A DNA stretch of 26,661 nt, from positions 1 to 26,661 of the forward strand of contig NW_021835638.1 of the NCBI RefSeq assembly GCF_006345805.1, given 5' to 3'. This document shows, one piece after another, positions 5,306 through 24,000 of this stretch (the first letter of the stretch is position 1; each line of letters starts with the position of its first letter). Origin of the DNA: Octopus sinensis (lineage: Eukaryota). Under the pieces are notes generated by a model, which ran no database searches, was not told the DNA's origin, and was given only the letters and a program-made list of their open reading frames with translations. Position numbers and translations under genes: made by a program.

Positions 5306-5520
5306 GAGGTGGTGAGCTTGCAGAATCGTTTGCAGGCCGAGCAAAATGCTTAGCAGTGCTTCGTTCGTCTTTACGTTCTGAGTTCTAATTCCGCCGAGCT
5401 CCACTTAGCCATTCATATTTACGGAGTCGATAAAATAACTGTTGATCACTGGGGTCGATGTAAGCAACTTGCTTACTCTTCTGAACTTTCTGCGCTTGTG
5501 CCAAATTCGAACCATGAACC
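5306..5520 (+). mobile_element. tRNA-derived SINE family A, near full length
   Basis: Head GAGGTGGTGAGCTTGCAGAATCGTT, TACGTTCTGAGTTCTAATTCCGCCGAG, CACTGGGGTCGATGTAA, tail CTTGTGCCAAATTCGAA. Confidence 0.85.
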
Positions 5521-9454: not shown

Positions 9455-10656
9455 TTATCTGCGCATGCGTATACCCCTATGTGTGTCTATGTTTAGTAAG
9501 TGCGCGCGTCTGTGTGGGGGGAGTGCCTGTATTATACACGTTCATTTAATTTGTTTTTATTTTGTTCATGTGTTTATACCTACTTATTATTTCTTTCTCT
9601 TTTTTTTTCTTTTTTTCTATCCTTACATTTTTTTATATTTAATTTAATTTAATTTCGTTAACGTATATAGTTATCTAATTCCATTTGTTTATCTGTGTAT
9701 TGTATCATATTTTGTTCATATTGTTATCAGTTTATGGGGATCTTATTCTGTTATATGCTGTGGTGTGTTGGGGGTGTGTGCTATTTCCTATTCAGGCTAA
9801 AATTTTGTCCACACGTCGAACAGACACAACGCTCAGACAAATTACAGAAGCTACACACATAATAGAAGATAAACGTAGCCTGAATAGGAAACTGGAATGG
9901 AACACTAGCACACACCCCTAACACACCACACCATATGACAGAATAAGATCCCAATAAACTGATAACAATATGAACAAAATATAATACAATACACAGATAA
10001 ACAAATGGAATTAAATAACTATATACATTAACAAAATTAAATTAAATACAAAAAAGATGATAGGATAGAAAAAAGAAAAAAGAAAGAAAAAATAATAAGT
10101 TGGTATAAACACACGAACAAAATAAATAAAAAAACAAATTAAACGAACGCAGGAGTGGCTGTGTGGTTAGTAGCTTGCTTACCAACCACATGGTTCCGGG
10201 TTCATTCCCACTGCGTGGCACCTTGGGCAAGTGTCTTCTACTATAGCCTCAGGCCGACCAAAGCCTTGTGGGTGGACTTGGTAGACGGAAACTGGAAGAA
10301 GCCCGTCGTATATATGTATATATATATGTATGTATATGTTTGTGTGTCTGTGTTTGTCCCCCCACCATTGCTTGACAACCGATGGTGGTGTGTTTACGTC
10401 CCGTAACCTAGTGGTTCAGCAAAAGAGACTGATAGAATAAGTTCTAGGCTTACAAAGAATAAGTCCTGGGGTCGATTTACTCGACTAGAAGGCGGTGCTC
10501 CAGCATGGCCGCAGTAAAATGATTGAAACAAGTAAAAGAGTAAAAGGGAGTAAAGAGAGAACGTGTATAAACAGGGGATACAGATAATACAAGCAACCCC
10601 CGCACACGCACTTACTAAACATAGACACACATAGGGGTATACGCATGCGTAAATAA
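9455..10656. mobile_element. Fold-back Penelope-like remnant: inverted arms ~9455-9799 and ~9876-10656 around a GIY-YIG C-terminus
   Basis: The arms are reverse complements (e.g. ACGCATGCGTATACCCCTATGTGTGTCTATGTTTAGTAAGTGCG; TTCCTATTCAGGCTA / TAGCCTGAATAGGAA). Spacer plus start of the right arm encode KILST..TDTTLRQITEATHIIEDKRSLNRKLEWN, matching the R.I.EA..I.....LN end of PLE endonucleases. Confidence 0.8.
10149..10558 (+). mobile_element. tRNA-derived SINE family B, full length, inserted in the right arm of the fold-back
   Basis: GCAGGAGTGGCTGTGTGGT head, GGTTCATTCCC B-box, CCTTGGGCAAGTGTCTT, internal (TA/TG)n, (AGTAAAAG)-type tail. GAACG occurs on both sides (possible TSD). Second copy at ~23555-24000. 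Confidence 0.9.
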
Positions 10657-12093: not shown

Positions 12094-13405
12094 CTGGGGC
12101 TGGACAAAATAATGGAAACATTAAAATTTCAAACAAATTTATTTTAATACGGGGCAGGACCGCCTTGGAAGTAATTGCAACTTGAATTCTACGAGGTATG
12201 GACTCGTACAAAGTTTGAATTGTTTTCAAACGAATTTTTGTCCATTCTTCAGCTAGAACAGTCTCCAGTTTTTGTAGTGATGATGGTGGAGGATATCGAC
12301 TCCCTACTTGTTTTTTTTTAAATCGACCATAAATGTTCAATACTACTGAGACCTGGGGACTGTGATGGTCAGGTAAAATGTTCAACTTCACTAGTAACAA
12401 ATTTAGCTGTGTGAATTGGTGAATTTTCATCCTCAAAAATTGCGTTTCCCTCCGAAAACAGTTCCGCAACCATAGCATGAATTTGATCAGATAAAATGCT
12501 TAAATAGTCTTCGCTATTAATTCTGCCATGAAGGGAAACCGCTGGGCCGGCGGATTTCCAAGATATAGTCCCCCAGATCATCACACATCTTCCACCAGGT
12601 TTCAGAGTTGGAAGAAGGCAGTCTGGGTCAAATGCTTCCTTTGGCTGTCTCCACATGTTTATTTGGCCGGTGGTCGGAAATAAGGTAAAGGATGACTCGT
12701 CCGGGAAAATAACATTCTTCCACTGCTTTAGGGACCAATTCTGTAGCTTTTTACTCCATTCTTAACGCTTTGCAACGTTTGATTTTGAAAGCAGTGGTTT
12801 TCTGATTGCAGCATTCCCGTGAAATCCGGCTTTGTGCAGCTCCCAGCGAACAGTTTTTGTGCAAAGTGGGTTCTCAAAGTGGTTATTAAGCTATGCAGTA
12901 ATTTTGGGAGCTGTACTTATGTGATCCTTTCTAACAATTCGTGTAAGAGTCGGAAGAAGGCAGTTTGGGTCGAATGCTCCTTTTGACTGTCTCCACATGT
13001 TTATTTGGCCGGTGGTTCCTATCTGAAAGTTTTGGTTTTCTTCCGGGGTTTTGTTTCGACGAGGAGGATTTTCTCTCTTTCTCAAAGGCTGTCATTACTT
13101 TCGAGACAGTACTTCTTGATACACCAAACATTTCGACTGTTTTCGTTACGTTAACATCTGCCATATGAGCATCAACAATTTGACCGCTTTGAAAGTCCGA
13201 TAGATCAGTCATTTTAATGAATTTTAATTACTTTTTTTTAATGATATCTGAAAAGAAACAGCAATTTTAGCAAAACATATTAAGCAACACTAATAATAAA
13301 TCAAAAAAACATAAAAATAAACAAGCTTTTGACGGTTTAATAGATATTTCAAAATTATGATGCTATGATGATGCTAGGTATTTCCATTATTTTGTCCAAC
13401 CCCTG
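12094..13405 (-). mobile_element. Tc1/mariner (Tc1-like) DNA transposon, full length, inactive
   Basis: TIRs CTGGGGCTGGACAAAATAATGGAAACA (left) and reverse complement CAGGGGTTGGACAAAATAATGGAAATA (right). TA on both sides; sits between (TA)n tracts. Confidence 0.95.
12148..13212 (-). pseudogene. Tc1-family DD34E-type transposase pseudogene
   Basis: MTDLSDFQSGQIV...FGVSRSTVSKV...GRKPKLS (paired-like HTH/GRPR-like), WKNVIFPDESSF, GGRCVMIWG, FEDENSPIHTA, PQSPGLSSIEHLW, LYESIPRRIQVAI. Contains stops and frameshifts. Confidence 0.93.
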
Positions 13406-16519: not shown

Positions 16520-16736
<217 letters not shown>

Positions 16737-16820
16737 AAGGGTGGAAAGGAACACACGAGTTGATATATATGAAAAAACAAGTCAAAAATAGAAAATGCTA
16801 AGATAATTTTATAGTGAATC

Positions 16821-16864
16821 TTTCAGTACCGGTTTCGGTCATTTTGAGACCTTTTCAACTGTAA
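16821..16864 (-). ncRNA. Minimal type I hammerhead motif, U3-A8 core variant (left arm)
   Basis: Exact reverse complement of 17685-17728. Confidence 0.75.
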
Positions 16865-17684
16865 CGATTAAATAATTAAATTTAGAAAGATTAGAAGAAA
16901 AGTTTTTTTAAAAGAATATTTCTATAGTAGTGTTCAGATGTAAGTGGCATTCTGCCTTTCTCTGACTCCTTTGTTTGCACTTGTGTGTTCGAGGTCGTTG
17001 TGAGTTCTTGGTAGGGTAGGTGAAGAAGAAGGCTGATGTGGAGAGGGGGTGGGGAAATCTGGGAATGCCTTGATGGTCGTATTTTGAATAGTCAGTGGCG
17101 GACAACAGTCGCAGTTCAATTCAGGAATTGTTTATGGAATTTGCGTAGGCGTTATATTGAAAGACATTAGTGACAAGGTTAAGGGGTAGAAGGTGGAGAA
17201 GTAGAAGAAGAAGAAGAAGATGACGATGTTGATGATGAAGAAGAAGAAGAAGAAGAAGGAGAAGGAGAAGATGATGGTGATGATGGTGGTGATGATGATG
17301 ACGACGATGATGATGATAATGATGATGATGAAGAAGAAGAGGAAGAAGAAGAAAAAAACAGAGAAGGGAGAATATGAATGGGTGAAAGTATAGCTGTGAT
17401 GGGGCTGATTAGTAATGGATTCTATGGAATGTAATATTTGTGTGTGTCCGCCACTGACCATTCAAAATACGACCATCAAGGCATTCCCAGATTTCCCCAC
17501 CCCCTCTCCACATCAGCCTTCTTCTTCACCTACCCTACCAAGAACTCACAACGACCTCGAACACACAAGTGCAAACAAAGGAGTCAGAGAAAGGCAGAAT
17601 GCCACTTACATCTGAACACTACTATAAAAATATTCTTTTAAAAAAACTTTTCTTCTAATTTTTCTAAATTTAATTATTTAATCG

Positions 17685-17728
17685 TTACAGTTGAAAAGGT
17701 CTCAAAATGACCGAAACCGGTACTGAAA
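17685..17728 (+). ncRNA. Minimal type I hammerhead motif, U3-A8 core variant (right arm)
   Basis: TTACAG-TTGAAAA-GGTC(TCAAAAT)GACC-GAA-ACCGGT-A-CTGAAA. Perfect stem II, palindromic stem III ACCGGT, GUA triplet, stem I CAG/CTG. Confidence 0.75.
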
Positions 17729-17774
17729 GATTCACTATAAAATTATCTTAGCATTTTCTATTTTCGACTTGTTT

Positions 17775-17816
<42 letters not shown>

Positions 17817-18414
17817 CATGGGTTTATAGATACAACTACGTTCCAAAGGATGATAAGCAGATAATCGTGTTGACAGGTACAACTAGAAACAAATAGATCT
17901 GTATTCAAAGCTACAATAAGATTCCCATAGAGGAGTAGAAGTTCTGGGGTCATAACTACAAAAGCATGTGAGTGCACAGACACAATAAGGTCCTAAGAGA
18001 TAATTCGAAGATCTGAGCTCATAGATTATCATAAGGTTCCCTAAAATAAATAAAACACATGAATTCGTGTAGATAGCACGATCCTTATAGGTAATTAGAA
18101 GATATAGGTTGATGTACATGATAGGGTTATCTAAAGATAAATGATAGATCAGGGGCTTTGATGATAGCGGTAGCGACGGTGTGATGGCGGCGGTGGAGAT
18201 TGTTATTCTGTGCAGTGAGAAAATCGAATTAGATACGGTAAAGGGGTTAATCCTACACGCTATCTTAGGAACCAAATCTTCTGCACTAATCATTTAGAAC
18301 TACAATTTTCTGCAGGCCAAATTAACCCCAATAATTATATACCCAAATTAGAAAATCTCACGTCAGCTTTCTTTTCTATTGTTTCCCCTTTTCTTTTGTT
18401 CTAAAGTTCCATAT

Positions 18415-18624: not shown

Positions 18625-18799
18625 TGGTTTCAAATTTTGGCGCAAGGCCAGCAATTTCAGAGGAAGGGGTATGTCGGTTACATCGGCCCCAGTGCCCAGC
18701 TAGTACTTTACTTATCGTCCCAGAAAGGATGAAAGGCAAAGTCAACCTCGGCGGATTTTGAACTCGAAACTTAAGGACGGACGAAATGCCGCTAAGCAT
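18625..18799 (-). mobile_element. SINE family A, 5'-truncated
   Basis: GAAAGGATGAAAGGCAAAGTCAACCTCGGCGGATTTTGAACTC...GACGGACGAAATGCCGCTAAGCAT on the + strand. Confidence 0.85.
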
Positions 18800-19960
18800 G
18801 CTGACAGAAGGCATATGGTTTCCAAATGGTGAAATGATGAAGGCAATTCAACCTCAATCCAGCTATATATACTTGGGAATACATGAGGTGAATGGAATTA
18901 AACACAACAACATGAAGGAAAAGACAAAAAGACAGTACCTGCTGCAAGTGAGAAAGAATTTCGGCAATAAACTCGCGGTTGTTCGGTATGGCGCTGGAAT
19001 CCCGAAGTGGACAGATGAGGAGCTAAAGGAGGTGAACAGGAAGTCAAGAAAGCTCCTAACGATGCATGAGAAAAAAAGGAAAAGAGAAAAAAGGAAAATA
19101 AAGGAAGAAGTACAAAAAGGACACGAAGAAGAATTACTCAGGAAGGGACTACAAAATCAATTCTATGCAGCCACAACAGAAATTGCTGAAGAACACAGGT
19201 AGGATTGGCTGATGAAAAGAACCCTAAAAAAAATAGACTGAAAGCACTATACTGGCAGCGCAAGACCAAGCTTTGGCCACGGATTCAAGGGTCAACCTTA
19301 GGAATGAACAAGTATCTCCGCTGTGCCGCATCTGTAATAGAGTGGATGAAACCATTGCCCATGCCATTAGACTTACTCAGAATAACTACAAGTTGTGGCG
19401 ACACGATCAAGTAGCGAAAGTGCTACATTGGAAACTGTGCGAAAAATGGGGGCTAGAGAGAGGCAAGACGTGGTATGAGCTCAAACCTCAGAGAGTCTCG
19501 GAGTCGGAGACTAGCAAAATCCCCTGGGATTTCCCAATCCAAACAGATGCGGTGTTAAAGCATAACAGACCGGACCTAGTGATGGTGGACAAGGTGCACC
19601 ACATATGCTATATAGTTGATTTTGCATGCCACTTTGACCCACGAATAGTCAAGAAGGAAGGCGAAAAAAAGGAAAAGATAAATACAACTCTCTTAAGTTC
19701 GAAATAGCCTGTCTATGGAAAATGATGATGATGAAGATTGTACCAATTATTGCTGGGTGCTTGAGAAGAGTATCAGGAAGCATCAACAGGAATATAAAGG
19801 AATATAAATAGAACTGTTACAAAAGGCTTGTCTCCTTGGCACGTCGAGAATAATCAGGAAAGTATTAGATAGCTGCACCGTAGGCTGCAGGTAGTAAGCC
19901 CGCTACGCATGAATGACACCAGGAGTTCCAACAAAATCTGTGATAAAAAGAAATACTAAT
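18800..19960 (+). mobile_element. R4/Dong-clade non-LTR retrotransposon 3' fragment (RT thumb, zinc knuckle, restriction-like endonuclease), decayed
   Basis: SYIYLGI, VVRYGAGI.KWT.EEL..VNRKSRKLLTMH, CRICNRVDETIAH, RHDQVAKVLHWKLC, WDFPIQTD...HNRPDLVMVDK...IVDFAC, ELLQKACLLGTSRIIRKVL. Confidence 0.9.
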
Positions 19961-23756: not shown

Positions 23757-23838
<82 letters not shown>

Positions 23839-24000
23839 TACGATAGGCTTCTTTCAGTTTCCGTCTATCAAATCCACTCACGAGGCTTTGCTCGGCCCGA
23901 GGCTATGGTAGAAGACACTTGCCCAAGGTGCCATGCAGTGGGACTGAACCTAGAACCATGTGGTTGGTAAGCAAGTTACTTACCACACAACCACTCCTGT
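23555..24000 (-). mobile_element. tRNA-derived SINE family B, full length
   Basis: Reverse-complement homologue of 10149-10558, with a longer internal (TA)n(TG)n. Confidence 0.92.

What the first reader, a model, noticed from the sequence alone, without database searches (positions are those of the whole stretch)
16771..17778. Young non-coding fold-back element with two outward-facing hammerhead ribozymes carrying a compensatory U3-A8 core
Seen: two 334-bp inverted arms with about four differences, TA repeats at both ends and no coding remnant. Each arm ends in TTACAG-TTGAAAA-GGTC(N7)GACC-GAA-ACCGGT-A-CTGAAA. Established: the hammerhead core is C3UGANG8A, positions 3 and 8 base-pair in the active fold, and minimal type I hammerheads with palindromic stem III mark Penelope-like pseudo-LTRs and are thought to cleave as dimers. 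Here both positions are changed (U3, A8), preserving the pair, so a CUGANGA search would miss the motif. Inference: this is a recently active, possibly non-autonomous, ribozyme-bearing PLE derivative. A transcript from either strand would carry one sense hammerhead near its 3' end and could also fold into a ~330-bp dsRNA hairpin (Dicer/ADAR substrate) that sequesters the ribozyme.
Basis: partly seen in the sequence, partly recalled or inferred. Interest (0 to 1): 0.8.

Follow-up and report, generated by a model that had tools for sequence, protein, structure and literature searches.

The report
Head-to-head Penelope retrotransposon double insertion
This is two truncated copies of a common Penelope-like retrotransposon joined head to head in a TA repeat, each carrying an already described hammerhead variant that is likely inactive here; it is ordinary in kind, but its family gives clues to how such elements are likely copied.

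Summary
The inverted arms (4 differences) and both U3-A8 hammerhead motifs are real, but this is not a separate non-coding element. It is two 5'-truncated 3' ends of a Neptune-like Penelope (PLE) family joined head to head at a 3-nt microhomology inside (TA)n. The 'spacer' is the left copy's 3' UTR, and the left copy runs past the TA into the PLE 'tail'. The genome holds 1749 motif matches (1742 with U3; none C3-G8) and full units encoding RT plus GIY-YIG. An older subfamily keeps the core and swaps one stem II pair, so the motif is under selection. U3-A8 cores, opposite-strand pairs, inverted copies and tails are in print (2013-2021). Family-level additions: 26 of 26 simple pairs carry the tail at exactly one end; one genomic copy has 21 sense-strand A>G changes that erase the ribozyme, likely an ADAR-edited RNA that retrotransposed; ORF1 overlaps the RT frame at a conserved -1 slippery site. 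Cleavage and transcription of this locus are untested.

The parts
16730..17447 (-). Long 5'-truncated copy of the PLE 3' end (about 718 nt): 3' UTR, hammerhead, internal TA run and tail
   Evidence: Aligns continuously to the 3' end of natural full unit L115 and to L021-L040
16730..16762 (-). PLE 'tail' (about 33 nt beyond the internal TA run), present only at this end
   Evidence: Matches the pLTR-to-ORF1 junction of tandem copies
16763..16770 (-). Internal TA run of the element; marks the short 3' end used by the other copy
   Evidence: Present inside 16 of 16 pLTR-ORF1 junctions found (one search shows 13 of them)
16824..16861 (-). Minimal type I hammerhead motif, U3 at 16858, predicted cut after 16827
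   Evidence: Descriptor scan
17105..17444 (-). The 'spacer': upstream 3' UTR of the left copy, with a (TCT/TCA)n tract
   Evidence: Matches family copies in reverse, directly 5' of the arm
17445..17447 (.). TGT microhomology joining the two 5'-truncated ends
   Evidence: family sequence diverges at 17445 and 17447 in loose ends of four runs
17445..17786 (+). Short 5'-truncated copy (342 nt) ending at the internal TA run, no tail
17688..17725 (+). Minimal type I hammerhead motif: stem I CAG/CTG, core 17691-17697 (U3, A8), stem II 17698-17701/17709-17712, GAA, palindrome 17716-17721, A17 at 17722
16524..16729 (.). Left part of the (TA)n/(TATG)n target microsatellite
17779..17815 (.). Right part of the (TA)n target, followed by single-copy DNA
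   Evidence: 17816-18400 has 1 match in G000

Best explanation
The feature is two 5'-truncated 3' ends of a Neptune-like Penelope retrotransposon family joined head to head in a TA microsatellite, likely made in one event in which both nicked target strands primed reverse transcription, and its two hammerheads are likely inactive passengers at this site. Shown: identity, boundaries, junction, family size, RT and GIY-YIG frames in full units. Inferred: the endonuclease nicks both strands of (TA)n; each 3' end anneals to one of two TA-like patches 33-41 nt apart at the RNA's 3' end (hence one tailed and one short end); both cDNAs stop early and are joined by microhomology. The ribozyme belongs to the pLTR of the master, 137 nt upstream of ORF1, where it is conserved and predicted to work only as a dimer or with protein help. 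Here the two motifs lie on opposite strands, and any read-through RNA is predicted to form a 340-bp duplex open to ADAR.
For: Family with 2494 candidates, 42 scored matches, 41 of them full length at 96-100%; 1749 motif matches. RVT_1 above cut-off and C-terminal GIY-YIG just under it. Among the first 100 matches, 22 neighbour pairs under 10 kb are tail-out, 3 tandem, 1 convergent. Truncation points vary from 36 to 3956 nt. Junctions of 26 pairs: 11 microhomology, 5 blunt, 10 insert or complex. Tail at exactly one end in 25 of 26 by classifier and the 26th by eye (p about 4e-7 for 25 of 26), and in 4 of 5 longer insertions. No pair mixes subfamilies A and B among those classified, and arms differ by a median of 3 against medians of 5-12 (one outlier 40) to other copies. 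Older subfamily, 30 copies found with flanking DNA only: 0 of 28 core, stem I and palindrome columns differ against 45 of 185 flank columns (Fisher p 0.001), stem II outer pair G-C to A-U. Six outside relatives at 44-48% protein identity have C3-G8, four with the same ACCGGT. Published architecture matches; two RT start sites and extension of both strands shown in vitro for a Poseidon PLE.
Against: No listed contig was seen bridging this locus's own junction; the tables were cut. The window is a whole unplaced contig. Cleavage was not tested, and the monomer fold is no more stable than shuffles (z -0.44). Transcription of this locus is not shown; RNA status of the runs is a guess. In the in vitro study RT start sites were not homologous to the cut DNA and did not differ between strands, unlike the annealing inferred here. 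In 5 of 29 pairs arm-to-arm difference was not lower than typical (fraction 0.48 or more). Clade placement rests on motifs read by eye, not on a tree.
Confidence: 0.9

Rival explanations
1. A distinct non-autonomous fold-back element with fixed 334-bp arms whose ribozymes have a role at this locus.
For: No coding sequence in the insert, near-identical arms; a fold-back locus could still be a template in trans.
Against: Arm and loop lengths differ at every locus examined; the spacer is 3' UTR; both motifs are predicted to be sequestered.
Confidence: 0.05
2. Same identity, other route: the inversion arises by cDNA snap-back or self-priming, on an antisense template, or from two separate RNAs, not by two primings on one sense RNA.
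For: Self-priming on an antisense template was proposed for rotifer PLEs (PMC3846280). 6 of 26 pairs truncate within 35 nt of each other (shuffled mean 1.2, p 0.0004), as near-perfect palindromes would. This locus (tailed arm longer) fits snap-back.
Against: In 12 of 25 classified pairs the longer arm has the short end and the shorter arm the tail, which copying the first cDNA cannot give. Two free RNAs predict about half asymmetric pairs. The one edited copy carries A>G on the sense strand.
Confidence: 0.3
3. The motif no longer cleaves and is conserved for another job, such as a splice acceptor, promoter or protein-binding site in the pLTR.
For: TTACAG after a pyrimidine/AT tract abuts U3 in both subfamilies, like the intron end in D. 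virilis. 16 of 16 copies reaching ORF1 extend 39 nt or more upstream of the cut site. A copy with an erased core still inserted. HHR mutants did not change insertion in vitro.
Against: The changes that did occur keep ribozyme pairing: 3-8 double change against outside relatives and a two-sided stem II change. No spliced joint was seen at that site in four runs (weak, contigs only).
Confidence: 0.2
4. An assembly or chimeric-read artefact.
For: Unplaced contig; junction not independently bridged.
Against: Flanks are not mirrored, ends are asymmetric, each arm has two private changes where the other arm matches L115, and the layout recurs with other junctions. The right flank is in four runs.
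Confidence: 0.02

Closest known systems
Neptune-clade Penelope-like elements (EN+ PLEs; Craig et al. 2021, PMC8557442)
   Same: RT then C-terminal GIY-YIG with a CX4CxxC linker; partial tandems forming pLTRs; inverted 5'-truncated copies; 30-40 bp tail at one end; (TA)n target; hammerhead in the pLTR.
   Different: An upstream 411-aa ORF1 overlaps the RT frame at a -1 slippery site, whereas canonical EN+ PLEs are described with a single ORF (the Fig. 1 legend allows an optional frameshifted ORF1 without naming the clade in text I could read). Core is U3-A8.
Minimal hammerheads of metazoan PLEs, including the Schistosoma mansoni Cercyon U3-A8 variant (Cervera and de la Pena 2014, PMC4209133)
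   Same: Type I minimal motif, palindromic stem III, U3-A8 covariation, motif pairs 100-700 bp apart on opposite strands.
   Different: Short 4-bp stem II with no extra nucleotide before it, ACCGGT palindrome, very homogeneous family, different PLE clade and host.
Poseidon PAc of Anolis (Frangieh et al. 2024, PMC11167929)
   Same: Two RT start sites that bound the tail, both target strands extended, AT-rich target, uncleaved RNA as template.
   Different: Here both start sites end in TA-like sequence matching the target, and the genomic pairs use one site each; the hammerhead lies upstream of the ATG, not across it.
Non-LTR retrozymes / MITE-like fold-back elements
   Same: Non-coding, hammerhead-bearing or inverted-repeat appearance.
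   Different: No fixed unit length or tandem monomer; the pieces are 3' ends of a 4.3-4.4 kb coding unit.

Membership tests
EN+ Penelope-like element | RT and C-terminal GIY-YIG in one reading frame in full units | tested here: met
   L115 784-aa frame: RVT_1 33.8 bits (cut-off 29.6), GIY-YIG 21.1 (cut-off 22.6); 22.8 in L023
EN+ Penelope-like element | Partial tandem forming a pLTR upstream of the ORF | tested here: met
   16 of 16 copies with the ORF1 start have the motif 137 nt upstream
EN+ Penelope-like element | Inverted 5'-truncated copies and an optional 30-40 bp tail | tested here: met
EN+ Penelope-like element | Hammerhead motif in the pLTR | tested here: met
EN+ Penelope-like element | Intron in the pLTR / 5' UTR (some families) | tested here: inconclusive
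   Acceptor-like TTACAG before U3; no matching joint in 4 runs of contigs
Neptune clade | CX2-5CxxC linker with about 25 residues to the next Cys (about 7 in Nematis), CCHH-type EN | tested here: met
   CX4CxxC, 24 residues, conserved in alignment A1; compared by eye with Fig. S2 of PMC8557442
Neptune clade | RT phylogeny groups with named Neptune elements | not tested
Minimal type I hammerhead | Core with 3-8 Watson-Crick pair, stem II, GAAA, palindromic stem III, NUH site | tested here: met
   U3-A8, GGTC/GACC, ACCGGT, GUA; conserved with covariation
Minimal type I hammerhead | Self-cleavage as dimer | not testable with these tools
   Cofold shows intermolecular pairing through the palindrome and stem I; no activity data
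Non-autonomous retrozyme or MITE-like fold-back | Fixed non-coding unit repeated with the same internal structure | tested here: not met
   Arm lengths 36-3956 nt and different junctions over 26 loci

The most novel reading that the evidence does not exclude
Head-to-head PLE insertions are made by twin priming on one sense RNA, each nicked (TA)n strand taking one of two TA-like start sites; the resulting fold-back loci feed ADAR, and hyper-edited RNA with an erased hammerhead still retrotransposes. That would be in vivo evidence that sense RNA is the template and that cleavage is dispensable for insertion, in a Neptune subgroup that makes its RT by a conserved, stimulator-free -1 frameshift.
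Probability: 0.4. Interest if true: 0.65.

Novelty: new member of a known kind. Interest (0 to 1): 0.4.

Why it matters
The locus is one of many. The family is useful because the origin of PLE inverted ends, the template strand and the role of the hammerhead are open questions. About 1750 young copies allow three direct tests: the strict one-tail rule, the strand of editing marks in retrocopies, and a natural U3-A8 versus C3-G8 comparison. A conserved -1 site between ORF1 and RT would add a recoding case in PLEs. Annotation pipelines that search only CUGANGA miss over 2000 motifs in this genome.

Tried and rejected
Rfam on the whole window: the 150 rows shown were microsatellite-driven miRNA/snoRNA matches. 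C3-G8 form of the family: 0 matches. Empty allele: right flank is single-copy; run contigs did not resolve it. Expression: no RNA holder listed on record; four guessed-RNA runs cover the arm but give no strand, ends or locus. The edited loose end in run X13 first looked like RNA editing, but the same string is in the genome, so it is not evidence of RNA-level editing; a second edited-looking loose end had no exact genomic match, only L309 with 3 A>G in the pattern, 6 in 360 nt and many 1-nt gaps, left as ambiguous. A second pattern for edited copies found only L306 again and one single change; among 223 non-redundant segments only L306 had a pure A>G cluster, and it was found by an aimed pattern, so this is no frequency. 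No mirror search for T>C clusters was run genome-wide. The first subfamily comparison was circular because the pattern fixed the core; it was redone from flanking DNA, where 13 of 30 copies matched a strict motif expression and 17 had scattered decay. Selenocysteine reading of a TGA in L030 rejected: other copies have Cys there. No stable structure after the slippery site in 7 of 8 loci. ORF1: no Pfam family, Atlas hits under 0.8. The DNA alignment had two badly chosen rows and was not used for counts. Earlier findings: nothing returned. Luense 2017 and Przybilski 2007 were not held.

Full report
Observation. The arms are at 16763-17104 and 17445-17786 and differ at 4 positions. Each holds CAG-TTGAAAA-GGTC(N7)GACC-GAA-ACCGGT-A-CTG, the only 2 hits of a type I hammerhead descriptor in the window. 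The window is a whole unplaced contig of a 2.72-Gb genome, G000. That the repeats look octopus-like is my recollection and comes from no call.

What it is. The arm is the 3' end of a repeat family: 2494 candidates, 42 scored matches; a relaxed motif pattern gives 1749 matches against 0 for the control. [quoted passage not shown] S2 of PMC8557442 (by eye). Full units are 4.3-4.4 kb, and 16 of 16 copies with the ORF1 start have the motif 137 nt upstream in a pLTR. Against natural unit L115 the window resolves into a minus-strand copy of about 718 nt (about 16730-17447) and a plus-strand copy of 342 nt (17445-17786), joined at TGT. The 'spacer' is thus 3' UTR, and the left 'TA end' is internal: the copy goes on for 33 nt of tail. 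Each arm has two private transitions, about 0.6%, so the insertion is young. Flanks are not mirrored and the right flank is single-copy and present in four runs; no listed contig bridged the junction, so that check is open.

The layout is the family's habit. Among the first 100 of 1749 matches, 44 sit in 22 tail-out pairs, against 3 tandem and 1 convergent. Of 30 pairs first examined I dropped 3 with an end running into ORF1 and 1 duplicate. In the remaining 26, which include this locus, arms span 36-3956 nt; 11 junctions show microhomology, 5 are blunt, 10 have inserts or are complex. The tail is at exactly one end in 25 of 26 by classifier and in the last by eye, and in 4 of 5 longer insertions. 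In 12 pairs the short-ended arm is longer, in 7 the tailed arm, in 6 they are within 35 nt (p 0.0004). Arms of a pair are usually closer to each other than to other copies, with 5 exceptions of 29.

The ribozyme. U3 is in 1742 of 1749 matches, A8 in all 100 listed, and C3-G8 in none. An older subfamily (540 matches) was sampled without using the motif (30 copies): 0 of 28 core, stem I and palindrome columns differ from the window against 45 of 185 flank columns (p 0.001), and the outer stem II pair is A-U instead of G-C. Six of 13 outside relatives examined had a clear motif, all C3-G8 (a seventh hit was implausible). U3-A8 also appears in three distant PLE loci. So the change is compensatory and recurrent. 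Activity is untested; that a U3-A8 swap keeps partial activity is recalled, since the papers were not held. At this locus the two motifs are on opposite strands and cannot pair as a dimer in one transcript; a read-through RNA is predicted to pair all 38 motif positions with the other arm. Every 3' end lies 57-95 nt beyond the cut site, and 16 of 16 5' ends lie upstream of it, so templates were uncut or religated circles.

Editing. A loose end in run X13 read the motif with 11 of 12 A as G. The same string is in the genome: L306 is an unpaired copy of about 140 nt in (TA)n with 21 A>G, one 1-nt gap and no other substitution against L105, all on the sense strand (A>G is 370 of 3134 background changes). 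The likely reading is an ADAR-edited sense RNA that was reverse transcribed. This is one copy, and its donor locus is unknown. Heavy editing of Penelope transcripts is reported in lizard (PMC5625713).

Frameshift. In L115, ORF1 (411 aa) overlaps the 784-aa RT frame in -1 at T TTT TTA, with no Met before the first RT motif; 13 of 13 full units have the site. Seven distinct outside loci of the 25 in which the motif was found show an in-phase TTTTTTA/G with the ORF1 stop 12-19 codons later, plus L183; the rest, mostly distant, do not. ORF1 is homologous between L115 and L172 (31% over 239 aa, E 4e-33). No stimulatory structure was found. Frameshifting is inferred.

Mechanism. Likely the endonuclease nicks both strands of (TA)n, each end anneals to one of two TA-like patches at the RNA 3' end, both cDNAs stop early and are joined. 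One shared RNA would explain the one-tail rule; an asymmetric dimer on two RNAs would too. Snap-back alone cannot explain the 12 pairs whose shorter arm has the tail.

Comparison with print. U3-A8 and opposite-strand pairs: PMC4209133 (parts 1-2 of 4 read). Inverted copies, tail at one end, (TA)n: PMC8557442 (passages, supplement search and one supplement part) and PMC3846280 (passages). Two start sites, both strands, HHR dispensable in vitro: PMC11167929 (parts 1-2 of 4). Passages only: PMC6765202, PMC3884650, PMC5625713, PMC6515669, bioRxiv 2026.07.22.740005 (29) and 2025.05.22.655539 (63, two non-overlapping ORFs in a killifish Neptune). PMC5009743 has no mention of PLEs in the 300,000 characters held (60). 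Searches for a Neptune frameshift and for retrotransposed edited copies showed no such report in their listings; subscription papers, Repbase, figures and bioRxiv supplements were not visible, and the Fig. 1 legend of PMC8557442 mentions an optional frameshifted ORF1, so novelty is not established.

Verdict. A real, young, ordinary PLE head-to-head insertion: new member of a known kind. Interest 0.4, carried by the family-level observations rather than the locus.

Noticed in passing
L306:1450-1593 (G000:C12, about 76890446-76890589): Genomic copy of the family's 3' end with 21 sense-strand A>G changes and an erased hammerhead core; likely a retrotransposed ADAR-edited RNA.
   Followed up: yes
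L115:3155-3218; L172, L173, L174, L175, L182, L183, L185, L217: ORF1 overlaps the RT frame in -1 at a conserved U-rich heptamer with the ORF1 stop 12-19 codons later; ORF1 has no Pfam family.
   Followed up: yes
L143-L171 (most of 110 matches); unit shown in L157:1440-1980: A second, C3-G8 hammerhead family in G000 in 352-360 bp tandems and tail-out pairs, retrozyme-like.
   Followed up: partly
L252-L305: Older sister subfamily (540 motif matches) with a shorter loop II and A-U outer stem II pair; ends often run into (CA)n as well as (TA)n.
   Followed up: yes
window:17660-17690: Pyrimidine/AT tract ending TTACAG directly before U3 looks like a 3' splice acceptor, kept in both subfamilies; no spliced joint seen.
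   Followed up: partly
L189, L208, L247: U3-A8 hammerhead cores in distant PLE loci from metagenome contigs; L220 and L221 show G3-C8 and A3-U8 candidates.
   Followed up: no
L141 (G000:C1:20693100-20695200): Two near-identical 300-nt palindromic pairs side by side.
   Followed up: no
L309: Copy with a small A>G cluster and many 1-nt gaps; ambiguous second edited copy or assembly error.
   Followed up: partly
window:9540-10148: Another AT-rich inverted repeat (arms 9591-9783 and 9906-10098, 84%), older and unidentified.
   Followed up: no
window:8752-9118, 5307-5438, 10150-10356, 23793-23999: SINE-like repeats, one as a 184-bp tandem, and two inverted pairs; the SINE label is recalled.
   Followed up: no
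window:15318-15929 (-), 12369-13227 (-), 18762-19707 (+): Tc1/Tc3-like transposase remnants and a non-LTR remnant with a weak zf-RVT match.
   Followed up: partly
P0029, P0073, P0075, P0078, P0079, P0093: Close PLE proteins carry bacterial symbiont names in NCBI, likely host DNA in symbiont assemblies.
   Followed up: no
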